Source: Myxococcota bacterium (lineage in GTDB: Bacteria; Myxococcota; JACRCW01). From it: DNA of 12,007 nucleotides. The position numbers were made by a program, and so were the translations under genes. This document shows positions 1 through 10,587 of this stretch, in pieces. Positions within the stretch are counted from its first letter, which is position 1, and the number at the start of each line of letters is the position of its first letter. The notes beneath the pieces were generated by a model. That model had not been told where the DNA came from. It saw nothing but the letters and a program-made list of their open reading frames with translations, and ran no database searches. Where the stretch lies: contig JBFMGU010000307.1 in the NCBI GenBank assembly GCA_040752415.1, positions 1 to 12,007 on the forward strand, given 5' to 3'.

Positions 1-93
1 GGCACGCTTGGGCTCAACTCGCCGGTGACGACGACGCTTCTTCAACTCCAGCCGGGACAGCCGGATACGCCAGATTTTGTCGATGCTGTCCAA
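1..93 (-). CDS. Possible 5' end of a gene running off the left edge (MDSIDKIWRIRLSRLELKKRRRHRRVEPKRA...), product unknown
   Basis: The minus-strand frame is open from TTG at 93 to position 1 and gives a protein-like basic sequence. Several A/T-ending or rarer codons (AAA, CGT, GTT, TTG) differ from neighbouring genes. It starts 5 nt after the inverted repeat arm at 99-122. No strong RBS, so the start is uncertain. Confidence 0.35.
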   Translation of the reverse strand, partial: MDSIDKIWRIRLSRLELKKRRRHRRVEPKRA

Positions 94-98
94 AGCGG

Positions 99-237
99 CT
101 CGCCGCCCTGGCCAGCGCCGAGTGCGTTCCCAACGTGCGGAACGGCCTTCGGCCTGTCGCGACGGGGCGTCGACGTGTCTGCGACCGGCGACCGTTGACA
201 AGAGTGCCACCCGCTCGGCGCTGGCCAGGGCGGCGAG
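99..237. repeat. Perfect 24-bp inverted repeat (99-122 / 214-237) enclosing 91 nt with several small hairpins; possible structured ncRNA or MITE/REP-like element
   Basis: 99-122 CTCGCCGCCCTGGCCAGCGCCGAG is the exact reverse complement of 214-237 CTCGGCGCTGGCCAGGGCGGCGAG. Internal stems: CGTTCC(125-130)/GGAACG(139-144), GGCC-TTC-GGCC(144-154), and GTCGCGAC(156-163)/GTC-T-GCGAC(177-185). Confidence 0.85.
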
Positions 238-381
238 GGCCCGCCGCACTCCAGGTTGTGGTCCGTTTGAGGCTGTCACGACCCGATGGCCAATTTGTCC
301 TGGCGCAGCCCCGACATGCTCACGTCGTCACGGTTGTGCTTCACCGCCCTGAAGGGAACCGCGACGTTCCTGGAAGCGCGC

Positions 382-3096
382 TCAGCCCACCGGAGCCGGT
401 GCAGCAGCGTTGCCCGTCGTCGGGGCGGGAGTGGTGGTGCCGGTGGCGGCGGGCTGCTGCGCGGGCTTGGTGACCGGCAGCTCCTTGTTGAGATCCTCGG
501 CGGAGTGCGCGTTCTTGATGTGCCAGGGATAGACGCGCTCCAGCCCGTGCATCTCCTGCTCGGCGGCGAAGTGGTGCTTGCCCAGCGTCACAATGCCCGG
601 CAACAGCGCGTCCTTGTCCAGCCGCAGCTCGAACGCCTTGCGATGCGCGGTCACCTCCACCTTCTTCTGGCTCTTCTCCTGGATCTTGAGCTGCATCAGC
701 GTGCCCGGCACGCCAAAGCGGTCCTTGATCTCGGTGACGCCCGGGTCCTTCTTCTCCCCGCTCGTCGACGACGTGGCGGCCGCGTCCGCGGGCTTGGCGG
801 CATCCGCCGCGGCCTTCTCCGCCTTGGCGGCCTCCGCGCCCTTCTCCGGGTCCAGCCAGGTCAGGATGCGGTCCGCAATGAACGCCGGGATGTGCTGCAG
901 GTTCACCACCTGGCTCTTCTTGCTGTCCGCGAAGGACTTGCTCAGCAGTGACAGGTCGCTGGTGGTGCAGATGTACTGCCGACCCACCGCCGAGCCCTCC
1001 AGCTTCATCAGCTCGTCGTAGAGCAGGCCCACCGTGCCGTTCTCGGAGCGCTCCTTGGCCACCGCCTTGGCGTCCTTCTGGCGCACGTCGTTGTTGGGCG
1101 CCATGCCAATCAGCTTGGCGAAGCTGTAGTCGCCACGCCACACGGTGATCTTTCCGTCGCCGTCGTTCTTGATGGCGTCATCCAGTGACTTGAAGCGCAG
1201 CGGCGAGGTCTCGTACATCATCTGCTCGTAGCGGACCTTGAAGCCGTAGGGGTTCTCCGTCGAGACGCGCGTGGGATCCGCCTTGGCCTTCAGTTGCTCC
1301 TTGGCCAGGTCGAACAGCTTGCCGCGCTGCTCATGCACCTTGGCGGCCAGGTCCTTGCGACCGGTGTCGCGCAGGCCCTGCTCCAGGTACCAGAACTCCA
1401 GGTCCACCTGCTGGTACTTGCTCATGGCGCTGGTGGCGTCGGAGCCCTTGGCGCCGGAGACCGTGAACAGCGTGGTCTTGTCCATCTTGGACACGTCGGC
1501 CAGCTTCACCAGCAGCTCGGCAACCTGCGGGTGCGGGGAGAGCTTGTAGTTCCCGTCGGCCTTGCGCGCTTCCAGGTCCGGCTCCACCACGAACTTCTCA
1601 CCGGCCTTGGGTTCCGTCGCGACCTTGCCGTGCAGTGCCACCGTGTCCTTGGTCAGCTCACTCAGCAGCTTCTGCCCTTCCTCCTTGGGCATCATCATCA
1701 GCCGACGCGACAGCGTGAAGTACTCGAGCTGGCTGAAGGGCACGGCCTTGCCGCCCATCACCAGCGAGGGCCGGCCCGCCGGGTCGTAGAGGAAACCGTC
1801 GCGGCCGAGGTCGAAGGGCAGCCCGTTGAGCAACACCGGCTTGTCCGGGCTCTTCTCCAGCACCTTCAGCCCGTTGCTGACCATGTAGTCGTCAAAGCCG
1901 GCGCGCACGCGGTCAGAGCCGATGAACTTCTTGGCGCGCGCAATGCCCTCGGAGACCTCGCGCTTGAACTGCTCGTGGCTCAGGGAGAGGTCGCGGTCCT
2001 GGTCGCGCAGGATGGCGGGCGGGAAGTCGTACTCGGAGAGGATGCGGTTCATCAGCACGCGACCGGTGCGGCCGTTGGAGTCGCCGAACGGGTGCAACGC
2101 CACGAAGCGCTGCTGGAACTTCGCCGCGGCGCCAATGACGTCGGCGTCGGGCTTCTTCAGCTCCGTCTTCAGCTCGTCCACCATCTCCTGCATCTTCTGC
2201 TTGATGACGTCCGGCTTGGGGTACTCCAGCATGCCGTAGCGCGCGTCGTTCTTGCTGCCCGGCAGCTCCACGAACTTGATGCCCAGCGCCTGCATGTTCT
2301 TCACTTCGTCGTTGGTATAGGTGCTGGGGCGCGCGTACTGGCGGCCATCCCGGATCTCCCCGCCCTTGTCCCAGCGGAAGCCGCGACCAATCCAGGCAAT
2401 GCCACGCAGCAGGGTGGCCTTGATGCCCTCGTCGGGGGCGTGGATGGCCTCATTGGCCTTCACCATCAGGTCCACGGAGAACTCGTCGAGCAGCTTCCCC
2501 TTGGGGATGTTCTCCAGCATGGTGTGCGCGCGCATGTAGCCACGCCACGCCACGTCGCCATAGGCCCGGGTGAAATCACCTTCCGCGCGGTTGGGCGTGT
2601 TGATGAACGTCGCCGCGATCATCATGCCCACGCGGCCGCTCTCGTAGTCGCCCTTGGCCTTGGGCAGCTCGTACGAGGAGAGCTTGAGGTTCGCCGGCTC
2701 GAGGTCGCGCGCGGAGAAGGTCTGCTTCTCGAAGAAGACGTTGCCCTTCCGCTCCCCGACGCCGTCCTCCAGCTTGAGCGCCTTGGGCTGGATGGGCGCC
2801 ACGAAGGCCTGCCACTGGCCGGACTTGATGGAGTTGCTGAGCTGGAACGTCGTCTCGGTGAGCTCGCTCTCGGTGGGCGAGTCGACGCCCTTGGCCTTCA
2901 GCAGCGCCCGCGCGGCGCTCTGCATGGACCACGAGTCCTTCTGCAGGTCCTCGACGGTCTTGTTGTTGGCCTTGAGATACTCCCCGAGGTTCTGCGGCTC
3001 CTTCTTCTCCTCGGGCTTGGGTTGTTGCGCAGGGAGGCCCGTGGGGGCCGGTGGGATGTAGCCGTGGGATGGGCTCTTTCCGGAGACGACCGTCAT
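382..3096 (-). CDS. Fic-domain protein with a putative C-terminal R-S-E ADP-ribosyltransferase domain (904 aa), candidate toxin/effector
   Basis: Fic motif HPFGDSNGRTGR at aa 335-346 (nt 2059-2094), preceded by AAAKFQQRFVAL. ART-like motifs are VWRGD (R654), YICTTSD (C710-S713) and EQEMHGLERVYPWHI (E846/E848). RBS AAGGGAGA lies upstream of ATG 3096. Strong G/C third-position bias. Both termini are Pro/Thr/Ala-rich. Confidence 0.9.
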   Translation of the reverse strand: MTVVSGKSPSHGYIPPAPTGLPAQQPKPEEKKEPQNLGEYLKANNKTVEDLQKDSWSMQSAARALLKAKGVDSPTESELTETTFQLSNSIKSGQWQAFVAPIQPKALKLEDGVGERKGNVFFEKQTFSARDLEPANLKLSSYELPKAKGDYESGRVGMMIAATFINTPNRAEGDFTRAYGDVAWRGYMRAHTMLENIPKGKLLDEFSVDLMVKANEAIHAPDEGIKATLLRGIAWIGRGFRWDKGGEIRDGRQYARPSTYTNDEVKNMQALGIKFVELPGSKNDARYGMLEYPKPDVIKQKMQEMVDELKTELKKPDADVIGAAAKFQQRFVALHPFGDSNGRTGRVLMNRILSEYDFPPAILRDQDRDLSLSHEQFKREVSEGIARAKKFIGSDRVRAGFDDYMVSNGLKVLEKSPDKPVLLNGLPFDLGRDGFLYDPAGRPSLVMGGKAVPFSQLEYFTLSRRLMMMPKEEGQKLLSELTKDTVALHGKVATEPKAGEKFVVEPDLEARKADGNYKLSPHPQVAELLVKLADVSKMDKTTLFTVSGAKGSDATSAMSKYQQVDLEFWYLEQGLRDTGRKDLAAKVHEQRGKLFDLAKEQLKAKADPTRVSTENPYGFKVRYEQMMYETSPLRFKSLDDAIKNDGDGKITVWRGDYSFAKLIGMAPNNDVRQKDAKAVAKERSENGTVGLLYDELMKLEGSAVGRQYICTTSDLSLLSKSFADSKKSQVVNLQHIPAFIADRILTWLDPEKGAEAAKAEKAAADAAKPADAAATSSTSGEKKDPGVTEIKDRFGVPGTLMQLKIQEKSQKKVEVTAHRKAFELRLDKDALLPGIVTLGKHHFAAEQEMHGLERVYPWHIKNAHSAEDLNKELPVTKPAQQPAATGTTTPAPTTGNAAAPAPVG

Positions 3097-3311
3097 CAGC
3101 GTTCTCCCTTCCGCAACTGTTCGATGTAGGGCTTGAGCTCAGGAGGCGGCGGCCATTGCGGCCCGGGCGGCGGCTTCCCCTTCCAGTCGATGCCGAACTT
3201 GTGGCCGCGCTCGCACTTGTACTCGTCGGTCTCGTCGCCCTCGTACGTGCGCTCCGCCTTGGCGCCACAGATCAGACACCAGTGGGTCTTTGCGTTCTCG
3301 CCGCCAGCCAC
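3096..3311 (-). CDS. Small Zn-ribbon-like protein (C-x2-C-x17-C-x3-H, Pro-rich tail), about 71 aa; alternative ATG start at 3335 (79 aa)
   Basis: Sequence includes HWCLICGAKAERTYEGDETDEYKCERGHKF. GGAGG sits 5 nt upstream of GTG 3311. Its TGA stop overlaps the ATG of the Fic gene (TGATG at 3098-3094). Confidence 0.75.
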   Translation of the reverse strand: MAGGENAKTHWCLICGAKAERTYEGDETDEYKCERGHKFGIDWKGKPPPGPQWPPPPELKPYIEQLRKGER

Positions 3312-3393
3312 TCCACCCTCCAGGAAGTCCCTCATCGGGTAACCGGATCACCCTACAATGGCGCTCCGGGCCTTTCCACTGAGGGGTGGGCGT

Positions 3394-3420
3394 TTATCGG
3401 GCAGGAAGACCGAAAGTTGC
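3394..3420 (-). promoter_or_regulatory. Putative sigma28/FliA-type promoter for the Zn-ribbon/Fic-ART operon
   Basis: Minus strand reads GCAACTTT-N11-CCCGATAA against the enterobacterial FliA consensus TAAAGTTT-N11-GCCGATAA: 5/8 and 7/8 matches with exact spacing, in the intergenic region upstream of the operon. Confidence 0.5.
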
Positions 3421-3499
3421 GTGGATCCGCGCGGTTGTGCCCGCCGTCACCCCGGGTCGTAGGATGCGGTCCCCCGTCGTGGAACGGGCAGGAGGTGGC

Positions 3500-4177
3500 A
3501 TGAAGCTGGTGATGGGTTCTCGGGCGTACTCGTCGTGGTCCCTGCGACCGTGGCTGCTGCTGAAACACGCGGGGATCCCGTTCGAGGAGGAGGTGCTGAG
3601 CTTCAACGCGCCGGACTTCAAGGCGCGCGCGCGCAGCTACTCGCCGGTGGGCAAGGTGCCGGTCCTCGTCGACGGAGACCTGGTGATCTGGGACAGCCTG
3701 GCCATCTGTGAATACGTGGCGGAGCGCTTCCCCGAGAAGGGCCTGTGGCCGAAGGAGCAACGGGCGCGGGCCCGGGCACGCTCGGTGTGCGCGGAGATGC
3801 ACTCCGGCTTCCAGGCGCTGCGACAGAACATGCCCATGAACGTCACCGCGCACCTGCCGGGCCGGGGCTGGAACCTCACCGTGCAGCGCGACATCGACCG
3901 CGTCACGTCGCTGTGGGCGGACTGTCGCGCGCGGTTTGGCGCGGGTGGGCCGTTCCTGTTTGGCGCGTTCTCCGTCGCGGATGCCTACTTTGCGCCGGTG
4001 GTCACGCGTTTCACCACCTATGGCGTCGCGTTGCCCGACGACGCGCGTGCCTACGTGGACACCATCACCGCGCTCCCCGCCATGAAGGCGTGGGTGGAGG
4101 CGGCGCGCGCAGACCGCGATTACGTCGAGGAGGACGAGCCGTATCGGACGCGGGAGCAGGCGGGATTGGGGTCGTGA
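3500..4177 (+). CDS. Glutathione S-transferase family protein (225 aa)
   Basis: N-terminus MKLVMGSRAYSSWSLRPWLLL, then SPVGKVPVL, IWDSLAICEY, CAEMHSGF and FLFGAFSVADAYFAPV. RBS GGAGGT at 3491-3496 before ATG 3500, so the ORF-track start at 3386 is too far upstream. Confidence 0.95.
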   Translation: MKLVMGSRAYSSWSLRPWLLLKHAGIPFEEEVLSFNAPDFKARARSYSPVGKVPVLVDGDLVIWDSLAICEYVAERFPEKGLWPKEQRARARARSVCAEMHSGFQALRQNMPMNVTAHLPGRGWNLTVQRDIDRVTSLWADCRARFGAGGPFLFGAFSVADAYFAPVVTRFTTYGVALPDDARAYVDTITALPAMKAWVEAARADRDYVEEDEPYRTREQAGLGS

Positions 4178-4322
4178 AGCGGTTCGTGCCCCGCTCGGGC
4201 GACACCCCGACACGTGGTGGGCGCGTGAAGCGTGGGTTGGGTTGGGAGGGCGCGGGCCGGTGGGCGCGGAACCCCGGCGGGGCGGAGGGGCTCCCGCGAC
4301 GGGCATGTCACGTTTTGTTCAT

Positions 4323-9594: not shown

Positions 9595-10587
9595 GTGGAC
9601 GTCCTCATCATCACCCGCACCGATGACAACGACTGCATCGGCATGGTCTCGGAAGAGCTGCGGCGTCGTGGCGCGCGGCCCATCCGCCTGGACACCGACC
9701 GCTACCCGCAGGACGTCCGCATCAGCACGCGCGTGGGCGGGGACCCTCGCGTCCGTCGCATGGTGACGTCCAGCGACAGCTTTGACCTCGGCTCGCTCGG
9801 CGCCGTCTGGTACCGCCGCTTCTTCGCCGGGGGTCGACTCCCCGCCGCGCTCGGCGACACGCGGCCCGCCTGCGTCGAGGAATCCCGGCGCACGCTGTAC
9901 GGGACCATTGCCGCCTCGGGGTGCTTCGAGATGGACCCGCTGGTGGCGGTGCGCAAGACCGACCACAAGGAGCTGCAGCTCAAGCGCGCGCACGAGCTGG
10001 GGCTGGAGGTGCCGCGCACGCTGTTCACCAATGACGTCGTGGAGGCGCGCGCGTTCCACGCGGAGCTGGGCGGCAACGTCATCACCAAGATGCAGAGCTC
10101 CTTCGCCATCTACCGCGACGGTCGCGAGCTGGTGGTGTTCACCACGCCGGTGAAGGCGGAGGACCTGCAGGACGCGGAGGGCCTGCGCTATTGCCCCATG
10201 ACCTTCCAGGAGCTGCTGCCCAAGCGCCTGGAGCTGCGCGCCACCGTCGTGGGAAGGCGCGTGTTGACCGCCAGCATTGACTCGCAGAAGTCGGAGAAGA
10301 CGCAGGTGGACTGGCGCCGCGACGGCATGGGCCTGCTCAACGACTGGCAACCCTACACGCTCCCCGCCCACGTGGAGGCGGCCCTGCTGCGACTCACCGC
10401 GGACTTCGGGCTGAACTACGCGGCGGCGGACTTCGTGGTGACGCCGGAGGGCCGGCACGTGTTCCTGGAGATCAACGCCGGTGGCGAGTGGTTCTGGCTG
10501 CAGCGCGCTCCGGGCCTGCCCATTGCCGCAAGCATTGCGGAGGTGCTGCTGGGGCAGGCGGAGCGGGCGGTCACCGTCGTGAAGTGA
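9595..10587 (+). CDS. mvdD: MvdC/MvdD-family ATP-grasp RiPP (microviridin/graspetide) maturase, closest in motifs to the MvdD/MdnC ester ligase (330 aa)
   Basis: Motifs VLIITRTDDN, RLDTDRYP, AVWYRR, HKELQL, ITKMQSSFAIY, VVFTTPVKAEDL, GLRYCPMTFQE, LELRATVVG, DWRRDG, WQPYTLP, FGLNYAAAD and FLEINAGGEWFWL follow the MdnC/MvdD pattern along the whole length. Confidence 0.88.
   Translation: MDVLIITRTDDNDCIGMVSEELRRRGARPIRLDTDRYPQDVRISTRVGGDPRVRRMVTSSDSFDLGSLGAVWYRRFFAGGRLPAALGDTRPACVEESRRTLYGTIAASGCFEMDPLVAVRKTDHKELQLKRAHELGLEVPRTLFTNDVVEARAFHAELGGNVITKMQSSFAIYRDGRELVVFTTPVKAEDLQDAEGLRYCPMTFQELLPKRLELRATVVGRRVLTASIDSQKSEKTQVDWRRDGMGLLNDWQPYTLPAHVEAALLRLTADFGLNYAAADFVVTPEGRHVFLEINAGGEWFWLQRAPGLPIAASIAEVLLGQAERAVTVVK

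What the first reader, a model, noticed from the sequence alone, without database searches (positions are those of the whole stretch)
382..3096. Fic + ADP-ribosyltransferase fusion: candidate dual-warhead toxin
Seen: besides the Fic motif (aa 335-346), the C-terminal third has VWRGD (R654), YICTTSD (710-713) and EQEMHGLERVYPWHI (E846-x-E848) in that order. Established: R-S-E clade ARTs use an aromatic-R strand, an S-T-S motif and (Q/E)-x-E. Cholera toxin A reads LYRAD, YVSTS, EQEVSALGGIPYSQI, and the last segment resembles the one here; ExE usually indicates arginine targeting. Inference: one polypeptide may carry two different nucleotide-transfer activities (AMPylation-type and ADP-ribosylation), an architecture I do not recognise as characterised. 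Automated annotation would probably say only 'Fic family protein'. Caveat: the TTS-to-ExE distance is long (about 130 aa) and includes an Ala/Lys/Ser-rich insert.
Basis: partly seen in the sequence, partly recalled or inferred. Interest (0 to 1): 0.85.

Follow-up and report, generated by a model that had tools for sequence, protein, structure and literature searches.

The report
Fic enzyme fused to ADP-ribosyltransferase
An uncultured soil-type myxobacterium encodes one large protein that joins a Fic (AMP-adding) enzyme to a previously unrecognised ADP-ribosylating toxin-like domain, a pairing of two protein-modifying enzymes for which I found no description.

Summary
Window 382-3096 is one 904-aa gene, on the minus strand. 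It carries a genuine Fic domain (Pfam E 1.3e-11, motif HPFGDSNGRTGR at aa 335-346).

1. Conservation: in 76 aligned relatives, 53 of the 61 rows that cover all the sites keep R + [ST][ST] + ExE.

No sequence method (Pfam, NCBIfam, PDB profile search) detects the domain. It is therefore a new sequence family of a known fold, and its relatives are annotated only as "Fic family protein".

Every full-length relative scanned also has Fic, so Fic plus ART behaves as one module. In three proteins of 2,000-3,400 aa the module sits at or near the C-terminal end.

A small zinc-ribbon gene is translationally coupled upstream and stays adjacent in 8 of 12 related loci.

Enzyme activity, target, delivery route and the partner's role were not tested.

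The parts
382..3096 (-). Fic-ART gene, 904 aa (P0001); stop codon at 382-384
   Evidence: ORF list and translation. Third-position GC is 0.94, typical of real genes in this 65-70% GC contig. It is a single copy in the 11.0-Mb genome.
2917..3096 (-). N-terminal ~60 aa, rich in Pro/Lys/Ser/Gln, with no recognised domain; a possible secretion signal (inference only)
   Evidence: Composition. No Pfam or NCBIfam hit.
2038..2229 (-). Fic core matched by Pfam PF02661 (aa 290-353)
   Evidence: Pfam E 1.3e-11, 45.6 bits against a cut-off of 24. PDB sequence hits to FICD, IbpA and 3cuc, E 4e-8 to 2e-5.
2059..2094 (-). Fic active-site motif HPFGDSNGRTGR (aa 335-346); Ser replaces the first Gly of the canonical GNG
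   Evidence: H335, P336, F337, D339, S340, N341, G342, R343, T344 and R346 are each listed as nearly invariant (>=90%) in the 31-sequence alignment (rows shown). No [ST]xxxE[GN] inhibitory motif occurs anywhere in the protein.
1246..1896 (-). Conserved middle region (aa ~401-617) of unknown fold; its last ~80 aa (aa 553-604) model as a long helical hairpin
   Evidence: Conserved columns in A1. Helices H14-38 and H42-65 of model 1, with pLDDT >90. No family hit.
469..1191 (-). ADP-ribosyltransferase-fold domain, R-S-ExE type (aa 636-876)
1129..1143 (-). VWRGD, with the aromatic-Arg (R654) on predicted strand beta-1
   Evidence: Model 2 strand E32-40 contains residue 37 = R654. W653, R654, G655 and D656 are invariant in 31 sequences. 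The cholera toxin A1 alignment runs model 31..255 = chain 1..138.
955..975 (-). YICTTSD, the S-T-S-type motif (T712-S713) at the end of a strand, followed by a helix
   Evidence: Model 2 strand E92-95, then helix H99-103. T712 is 66/70 and S/T713 is 69/70.
739..885 (-). Variable helical and disordered insert (aa 738-786), Ala/Lys-rich
   Evidence: Model 2 helices H121-148, with pLDDT <50 at model residues 151-162. The length varies from near zero to ~100 aa among relatives.
517..561 (-). EQEMHGLERVYPWHI: the ExE motif (E846, E848) at the start of a strand
   Evidence: Model 2 strand E231-234; E848 = model residue 231. E-Q-E is invariant in the 16-sequence domain alignment. E846 is 67/70 and E848 is 65/72.
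3096..3335 (-). Small zinc-ribbon-type partner gene (79 aa from the ATG; relatives suggest the GTG start at 3311, giving 70 aa beginning MAGG). Its TGA stop overlaps the Fic-ART ATG (TGATG).
   Evidence: A homologue lies next to the toxin homologue in 8 of 12 loci. In the 9-sequence alignment, MAGG, C12, C15, R21, E24, G25, C33 and H37 are invariant. It is a single copy in this genome.

Best explanation
The gene encodes a multi-domain protein-modifying toxin or effector of an uncultured Myxococcota bacterium. It carries two catalytic domains that both look intact. The first is a Fic domain, which should transfer AMP (or another nucleotide-derived group) from a nucleotide to a Ser/Thr/Tyr hydroxyl of a target protein. 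The second is a C-terminal ADP-ribosyltransferase domain of the R-S-ExE clade, which should bind NAD+ and transfer ADP-ribose. The ExE form suggests an arginine acceptor, as in cholera toxin and TreX/Tre1. SHOWN: the ORF, the Fic family membership, the ART fold (predicted structure), conservation of both active-site motifs, the inheritance of Fic plus ART as one module, and the conserved adjacency of a small zinc-ribbon gene. INFERRED: both activities, the arginine specificity, the toxic or effector role, delivery out of the cell (route unknown; a type III system is possible), and a role for the small protein as an immunity, inhibitor or helper partner.
For: Fic domain: Pfam PF02661 E 1.3e-11, above the cut-off. 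The closest solved sequences are FICD and IbpA. The motif positions H335, P336, F337, D339-T344 and R346 are each >=90% conserved in the 31-sequence alignment. No auto-inhibitory [ST]xxxE[GN] motif is present.

Motif placement: R654 lies on beta-1, T712-S713 at a strand end before a helix, and E848 at a strand start. Alignment end-points place cholera toxin residue 7 and pertussis S1 residue 9 opposite R654 (that these are the catalytic Arg residues is recalled).

Conservation: 53 of the 61 rows that cover all eight sites keep R, [ST][ST] and ExE.

Module: 29 of 30 close homologues carry Fic. Of 20 further relatives scanned, 14 carry Fic, including proteins of 1,963, 3,373 and 3,397 aa with the module at or near the C-terminal end.

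Accessory-gene distribution: the domain was found in 8 of 401 sampled genomes of the phylum.

Partner: the stop and start codons overlap. The partner is adjacent in 8 of 12 loci, in three different arrangements. In all 5 sampled genomes that hold both genes, they lie on the same contig within about 2 kb.

Literature: TreX is described as an R-S-ExE, arginine-modifying interbacterial toxin neutralised by an adjacent immunity protein (PMC11606950, passages read).
Confidence: 0.6

Rival explanations
1. The two domains form a coupled or self-regulating enzyme rather than two independent warheads. They act in sequence on one substrate, or one domain modifies and controls the other (for example auto-ADP-ribosylation or auto-AMPylation).
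For: The ART-like domain was never found with an intact catalytic motif outside a Fic-containing protein. 29 of 30 close and 14 of 20 further relatives carry Fic, and the Fic-less ones are short, so they may be truncated (contig lengths were not checked). The intervening region is conserved too. In polymorphic toxins independent warheads usually shuffle (PMC3482391, passages read); here they do not.
Against: No direct evidence exists for coupling. Fixed two-enzyme effectors with independent targets are known (ExoS/ExoT, IbpA; recalled).
Confidence: 0.15
2. The gene pair is an intracellular toxin-antitoxin or phage-defence module. The protein stays in the producer cell and is held in check by the small zinc-ribbon protein.
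For: The small upstream gene is translationally coupled, as in type II toxin-antitoxin pairs. The partner family has an invariant Glu-Gly, and 5 of 9 members match the Fic-inhibitor pattern [ST]xxxE[GN]. Fic proteins appear in PADLOC defence models. No export signal or secretion-system marker lies nearby.
Against: The window's own partner lacks the S/T of that pattern. The partner's position and strand vary, including convergent placement and one case 3 kb away, which is unusual for toxin-antitoxin operons. The PADLOC hits cover only the generic Fic core. Relatives of 2,000-3,400 aa with the module at or near the C-terminal end look like delivered polymorphic toxins. The neighbours are housekeeping genes, not a defence island.
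Confidence: 0.15
3. The ART-fold domain is active but not on protein arginine. It modifies DNA or RNA (like Scabin or pierisin) or a small molecule (like Arr), or it simply hydrolyses NAD+.
Against: The best match, TreX, modifies arginines of FtsZ and shares the ExE form that its authors call typical of arginine-modifying toxins (PMC11606950). E846 is conserved in 67 of 70 rows.
Confidence: 0.12
4. The C-terminal domain is a catalytically dead ART-like fold used only for binding, or the motif match is coincidental.
For: There is no sequence-level membership in any ART family. A large insert interrupts the domain. 8 of 61 relatives have lost one or more triad residues.
Against: The triad residues are among the very few invariant columns: 14 of 263 in A5, including T712 and E-Q-E. 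That is the pattern expected for an active site under selection. 53 of 61 rows keep the full triad.
Confidence: 0.05

Closest known systems
TreX / Tre1 (T6SS-delivered Rhs C-terminal ADP-ribosyltransferase toxins; PDB 8s2m, 9gco)
   Different: There is no detectable sequence homology. This domain carries a ~49-aa insert and sits behind a Fic domain rather than an Rhs cage. No T6SS sheath gene was found in this genome. The neighbouring protein is a zinc ribbon, whereas TriX acts through an inhibitory alpha-helix.
Cholera toxin A1 / heat-labile enterotoxin / pertussis toxin S1 / PltA (CT-PT group of R-S-E ARTs)
   Different: These are AB5 toxins with B-subunit genes and signal peptides, and none of these features is present here.
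Scabin / pierisin / mosquitocidal toxin / CARDS toxin
   Different: Scabin and pierisin modify DNA guanine and use QxE (recalled). This family has a strictly conserved ExE.
Fic-domain effectors and enzymes (FICD/HYPE, IbpA, VopS, XopAC/AvrAC, AnkX)
   Same: Pfam Fic core. Best sequence hits are FICD, IbpA and the XopAC family model. There is no intramolecular inhibitory motif; that effector-type Fic proteins also lack one is recalled.
   Different: Ser replaces the first Gly of GNG. Scores fall far below the cut-offs of the XopAC, SoFic and AnkX models (32 vs 450, 20 vs 550, 11 vs 1400 bits). None of those proteins carries an ART domain.
Two-enzyme bacterial effectors (ExoS/ExoT: GAP+ART; IbpA: Fic+Fic+protease; SidE family: DUB+PDE+mART)
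   Same: The principle of several catalytic domains in one delivered polypeptide (recalled; SidE chemistry appears in the search listing for PMC5518988).
   Different: The Fic+ART combination was not found in three full-text searches, nor in the passages of two comparative-genomics surveys that matched the terms Fic, Doc or AMPylat (PMC3482391; PMC5512222).

Membership tests
Fic/DOC family (Pfam PF02661) | Profile match above the curated cut-off | tested here: met
   45.6 bits against a cut-off of 24, E 1.3e-11, aa 290-353.
Fic/DOC family (Pfam PF02661) | Active-site motif HxFx(D/E)GNGRxxR (motif recalled; PMC3482391 gives HxFx[DE]GNxR) | tested here: met
   HPFGDSNGRTGR at aa 335-346 has His, Phe, Asp, Asn, Gly and both Arg. 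The one deviation is Ser340 in place of Gly. It fits the HxFx[DE]GNxR form except at that Gly. Divergent relatives have G, A or C at this position.
XopAC/AvrAC, SoFic, AnkX equivalog families (NCBIfam) | Score above the family cut-off | tested here: not met
   32.4 vs 450, 19.7 vs 550 and 10.9 vs 1400 bits. It is a Fic protein but not a member of these named families.
ADP-ribosyltransferase superfamily, R-S-E clade | ART fold (split beta-sheet core with an NAD cleft) | tested here: met
ADP-ribosyltransferase superfamily, R-S-E clade | Arg preceded by an aromatic residue on strand beta-1 | tested here: met
   W653-R654 lies in predicted strand E32-40. R is kept in 59 of 64 rows; the other 5 have H or Q.
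ADP-ribosyltransferase superfamily, R-S-E clade | S-T-S (or [ST]-[ST]) motif at the end of beta-2, followed by a helix | tested here: met
   T711-T712-S713 ends strand E92-95, followed by helix H99-103. T712 is 66/70 and S/T713 is 69/70. It reads T-T-S rather than S-T-S.
ADP-ribosyltransferase superfamily, R-S-E clade | (Q/E)xE with the catalytic Glu at the start of beta-5 | tested here: met
   E846-Q847-E848, with the strand starting at E848. E846 is 67/70 and E848 is 65/72. E-Q-E is invariant in A5.
ADP-ribosyltransferase superfamily, R-S-E clade | The three motif residues converge on one NAD-binding cleft | not testable with these tools
   Model coordinates are not exposed. Only secondary-structure placement and alignment end-points are available.
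ADP-ribosyltransferase superfamily, R-S-E clade | NAD+-dependent ADP-ribosyl transfer | not testable with these tools
   Needs biochemistry.
Any curated ART sequence family (Pfam / NCBIfam) | Profile match | tested here: not met
   No ART family matched at E<=1 for the protein or at E<=10 for 16 domain sequences. PDB sequence searches with the single domain sequence and with the domain profile each gave 0 hits at E<=10. It is a new sequence family within the fold.
Polymorphic toxin system | N-terminal trafficking domain, C-terminal toxin, adjacent immunity gene | tested here: inconclusive
   No known trafficking domain occurs in this protein. Relatives of 1,963-3,397 aa carry the module at or near the C-terminal end. 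A small conserved neighbour exists, but its role is untested.
Class I Fic toxin-antitoxin (VbhT/VbhA type) | Small partner supplying the inhibitory (S/T)xxxE(G/N) motif (motif recalled) | tested here: inconclusive
   5 of 9 partner sequences match; the window's own does not. The E-G is invariant. The motif sits inside a zinc-ribbon segment, not a known helix.

The most novel reading that the evidence does not exclude
The two domains may carry out one coupled, SidE-like two-step reaction instead of two separate ones. The ART domain would ADP-ribosylate an arginine. The Fic domain would then use that ADP-ribosyl group as its nucleotide-diphosphate donor in place of free ATP, much as AnkX uses CDP-choline. 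It would either pass AMP to a target hydroxyl or form a phosphoribosyl bridge between two proteins. This would explain why this ART family is found intact only behind this Fic clade, why the linker region is conserved, and why the Fic anion-hole Gly is replaced (Ser here; Ala or Cys in some relatives). It would be a new chemistry for Fic enzymes.
Probability: 0.07. Interest if true: 0.9.

Novelty: new variant of a known kind. Interest (0 to 1): 0.62.

Why it matters
Fic enzymes and ADP-ribosyltransferases are two of the main families that bacteria use to modify the proteins of other cells, and both consume adenine-nucleotide cofactors. I found no report of a natural protein in which the two are locked together. 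Such a protein offers a way to ask whether they cooperate on one target or pathway.

The finding also adds an ART sequence family that current profile libraries miss entirely. Its roughly 80 known members are annotated only as "Fic family protein" or hypothetical. It points to predatory or soil Myxococcota as a source of large, unexplored toxin architectures, with proteins up to 3,400 aa. The conserved zinc-ribbon neighbour could be a new kind of immunity or regulatory partner.

If the two domains simply act independently, this is one more multi-domain effector: useful, but not surprising.

Tried and rejected
**Sequence links to known ARTs.** None were found. This covers Pfam and NCBIfam on the protein, phmmer of aa 540-880 against PDB sequences (0 hits at E<=10), profile A5 against PDB sequences (0 hits), Pfam on 16 domain sequences at E<=10 (no ART family), and profile A5 against 5.8 billion proteins (9 hits, all from this family, none with a Pfam domain).

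**ESM Atlas.** No usable lead for aa 636-875 (best score 0.81) or aa 395-620.

**Sequencing runs.** None was listed.

**PADLOC.** Only generic Fic-core hits.

**Promoter and terminator scan, window 1-3700.** No promoter-like site; terminator-like sites at background level.

**Earlier scan notes.** Nothing on this protein or on a Fic+ART pair.

**ORF 3353-4306 (-), 317 aa, Arg/Pro-rich.** Rejected as a frame artefact. Its third-position GC is 0.69, against 0.86 for the overlapping plus-strand GST-like gene, and it has no Pfam hit.

**Strict toxin-only partner.** Rejected. 8 of the 13 sampled genomes with the small gene lack the toxin.

**T6SS or eCIS delivery.** No TssC was found. No eCIS core domain was found, but that control rang in no genome, so the answer is uninformative.

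**My ExE regular expression.** It was badly designed and I ignored it. The alignment counts are used instead.
Full report
**1. What is in the sequence.**

Window 382-3096 is one open reading frame on the minus strand, 904 aa (P0001). The plus strand of the same coordinates is full of stops. Third-position GC is 0.94, as in the other real genes of this 65-72% GC contig.

- HPFGDSNGRTGR, aa 335-346
- VWRGD, aa 652-656
- YICTTSD, aa 708-714
- EQEMHGLERVYPWHI, aa 846-860

The window is a complete 12,007-bp contig of an 11.0-Mb, 520-contig genome (96.8% complete). The gene is single-copy in that genome. Named relatives come from Myxococcota and Kofleriaceae metagenome-assembled genomes.

**2. The Fic half.**

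- Pfam places a Fic domain at aa 290-353 (E 1.3e-11, 45.6 bits against a cut-off of 24).
- The closest solved sequences are FICD, a Bacteroides Fic protein and IbpA (E 4e-8 to 2e-5).
- NCBIfam gives only sub-threshold similarity to the XopAC, SoFic and AnkX models. It is therefore a Fic protein but not a member of a named equivalog.
- The motif keeps His, Phe, Asp, Asn, Gly and both Arg. The one departure is Ser340 in place of the first Gly of GNG. Ser is fixed in the core clade and is G, A or C in divergent relatives.
- No [ST]xxxE[GN] auto-inhibitory motif occurs anywhere in the protein.

**3. The C-terminal domain: sequence evidence.**

- No profile library recognises aa 540-904.
- The region is nevertheless strongly conserved. 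A word-indexed search with aa 560-904 found 30 homologues at 40-65% identity, and 29 of them carry Pfam Fic.
- An exhaustive phmmer search of 1.84 billion representatives with aa 540-880 found 56 proteins at E<=0.001.
- In the 31-sequence alignment W653, R654, G655, D656 and T712 are invariant, and S713, E846, Q847 and E848 are at least 90% conserved.
- In the 76-sequence alignment: R654 59/64, T712 66/70, S/T713 69/70, E846 67/70, Q847 67/72, E848 65/72.
- Of the 61 rows that cover all eight key columns, 53 keep R + [ST][ST] + ExE. Five carry W[H/Q]G instead of WRG while keeping EQE, and three are otherwise degenerate.
- In a 16-sequence domain-only alignment only 14 of 263 columns are invariant. 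These include T712 and E-Q-E. That is the pattern expected of an active site.

**4. The C-terminal domain: fold evidence.**

A second model was restricted to aa 618-880 and built on 76 sequences. It reached pLDDT 90.1 and pTM 0.83. Results with this model:
- **Foldseek.** Still not significant on its own (best E 0.11), although the first 21 printed rows are all ART toxins.
- **VIA-align against all 48,161 representative chains.** This search does not depend on Foldseek.

|---|---|---|
| TreX | 10.3 | rmsd 2.9, 107 of 128 residues, 20% identity |
| Scabin | 8.7 | |
| CARDS toxin | 8.2 | |
| EcPltA | 8.1 | |
| Pertussis S1 | 7.6 | |
| TccC3 | 7.4 | |
| LT | 6.5 | |
| Pierisin | 6.4 | |
| Arr | 5.7 | |
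| Tpt1 | 5.3 | |
| DarT | 5.0 | |

In the model:
- R654 lies on the first strand (E32-40).
- T712-S713 ends a strand that is followed by a helix.
- E848 begins a strand.

These are the canonical positions of the R, S-T-S and ExE elements (canonical positions recalled).

Aa 738-786 form an insert of two helices plus a disordered Ala/Lys-rich stretch. Its length ranges from near zero to about 100 aa among relatives.

**5. Architecture and distribution.**

- The ART-like domain travels with Fic. Among 20 further relatives scanned, 14 have Fic (13 of them above the cut-off).
- In proteins of 1,963, 3,373 and 3,397 aa the Fic-ART module sits at or near the C-terminal end: it runs to within about 10-35 aa of the end in the two largest, and is followed by about 130 further residues in the 1,963-aa protein.
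- Four relatives start with DUF4781.
- The six relatives without Fic are five short proteins (440-605 aa), which may be truncated (their contig lengths were not checked), plus P0082.
- P0082 is a 2,216-aa protein with an eCIS-core domain. It contains only a degenerate copy of the last third of the domain, with GGQD where EQE should be.
- In a sample of 401 genomes of the phylum the domain occurs in 8, spread over three families. That is the patchy pattern of an accessory gene.
- The genome has two FHIPEP (SctV/FlhA-type) genes and no TssC. A type III route is possible, but this is inference only.

**6. The neighbour.**

A small gene (window 3096-3335) ends in a TGA that overlaps the Fic-ART ATG. 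Relatives indicate a GTG start at 3311, giving a 70-aa protein that begins MAGG. Its 9-sequence alignment has invariant MAGG, CxxC, R, E-G, and a C...H pair (C33, H37): a zinc-ribbon pattern with no Pfam family.

- A homologue lies beside the toxin homologue in 8 of 12 related loci: upstream on the same strand, downstream on the same strand, downstream convergent, and once 3 kb away. Some of these loci are the same records as the sampled genomes below, so the two counts are not independent.
- In the 401-genome sample, 13 genomes have the small gene and 8 have the toxin domain. The 5 that have both keep them on the same contig within about 2 kb.
- The other 8 have the small gene beside unrelated genes, and no toxin lies within 6 kb: a CobW-type GTPase plus ABC transporter (twice), a GNAT, a sigma-54 activator and others.
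- The three genomes with divergent family members lack the small gene. The genome of locus L007 has it elsewhere. That last statement rests on genome G401, which the tool flags as unpublished.
- The profile weakly resembles the zinc-ribbon core of RbpA (E 0.012-0.06 over 25 residues).
- 5 of 9 members match the Fic-inhibitor pattern [ST]xxxE[GN], but the window's own does not.

I regard the protein as a probable functional partner (immunity, inhibitor or helper) whose role is open.

**7. Mechanism.**

Most likely (about 0.6) this is a bifunctional protein-modifying toxin or effector. The Fic domain would transfer AMP or a related group from a nucleotide to a hydroxyl side chain. The ART domain would transfer ADP-ribose from NAD+ to arginine; the ExE form is described by the TreX authors as typical of arginine-modifying toxins (PMC11606950, passages read).

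- **Shown:** domain identities, conservation of both catalytic motifs, the modular inheritance, and the gene pairing.
- **Inferred:** the activities, the acceptor residue, toxicity, export, and the partner's role.

The rivals are:
- coupled or self-regulating action of the two domains;
- an intracellular toxin-antitoxin or defence module;
- a non-protein acceptor for the ART domain;
- a dead, binding-only domain.

Their evidence is set out in the rival-explanation entries.

**8. Comparison and novelty.**

The domain belongs structurally to the R-S-E clade of ARTs, nearest to TreX and then to the Scabin/CARDS and CT/PT groups. It fails every sequence-family membership test, so it is a new sequence family of a known fold.

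Fic toxins are a known class of polymorphic-toxin domain (PMC3482391, passages read), and multi-enzyme effectors are a known principle. The specific Fic+ART module did not turn up in:
- three full-text searches;
- the passages matching Fic, Doc or AMPylat in two comparative-genomics surveys;
- earlier notes of this scan.

These searches cover only the open-access library, and I opened no supplementary files. I therefore class it as a new variant of a known kind.

**9. Verdict.**

Activity is untested. Interest is moderate to high (0.62). It is a clean, testable prediction of a two-cofactor modifying enzyme with a candidate new partner protein. There is also a small chance that the obligate pairing reflects a coupled chemistry.

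Noticed in passing
window 3096-3335 (-); loci L038-L045: The small zinc-ribbon protein family (MAGG...CxxC...R.YEG...C..GH.F..DW) also occurs away from the toxin in 8 of 401 sampled genomes, twice beside a CobW/HypB/UreG-type GTPase and an ABC ATPase. Its profile weakly resembles the zinc-ribbon core of the RNA-polymerase-binding protein RbpA (E 0.012-0.06).
   Followed up: partly
protein P0082 (2,216 aa), residues ~464-547: A giant protein with an eCIS-core domain (PF13699) contains only the last third of the ART-like domain, with GGQD in place of EQE. It looks like a recombination remnant inside another toxin-type protein.
   Followed up: partly
proteins P0034, P0035, P0036 (1,963-3,397 aa): The Fic-ART module sits at or near the C-terminal end of very large proteins. 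Pfam leaves their N-terminal 1,200-2,700 aa almost entirely unassigned, apart from one weak Peptidase_M6 hit.
   Followed up: no
proteins P0049, P0051, P0058, P0064: Four divergent family members carry an N-terminal DUF4781 domain ahead of Fic.
   Followed up: no
proteins P0052, P0054, P0059, P0062, P0066: A subset of relatives has W-H-G or W-Q-G in place of W-R-G while keeping T-[ST] and E-Q-E. This may be a sub-clade with altered NAD handling.
   Followed up: no
window 3500-4177 (+): A glutathione-S-transferase-like gene is transcribed divergently from the partner/Fic-ART operon (NCBIfam E 1.7e-23, below the cut-off). The overlapping 317-aa minus-strand ORF is a frame artefact.
   Followed up: yes
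window 9595-10587 (+): An ORF with an MvdD-type pre-ATP-grasp domain (microviridin-like peptide maturation) lies next to a HAD hydrolase and a peptidoglycan-binding protein. This may be a small RiPP locus.
   Followed up: no
window 1-381: No ORF with coding-like third-position GC lies downstream of the Fic-ART stop up to the contig end. The terminator scan was at background level.
   Followed up: partly
protein P0028 (581 aa): One close homologue departs from the family just before the EQE motif and continues in unrelated sequence, as after a frameshift or assembly error.
   Followed up: no
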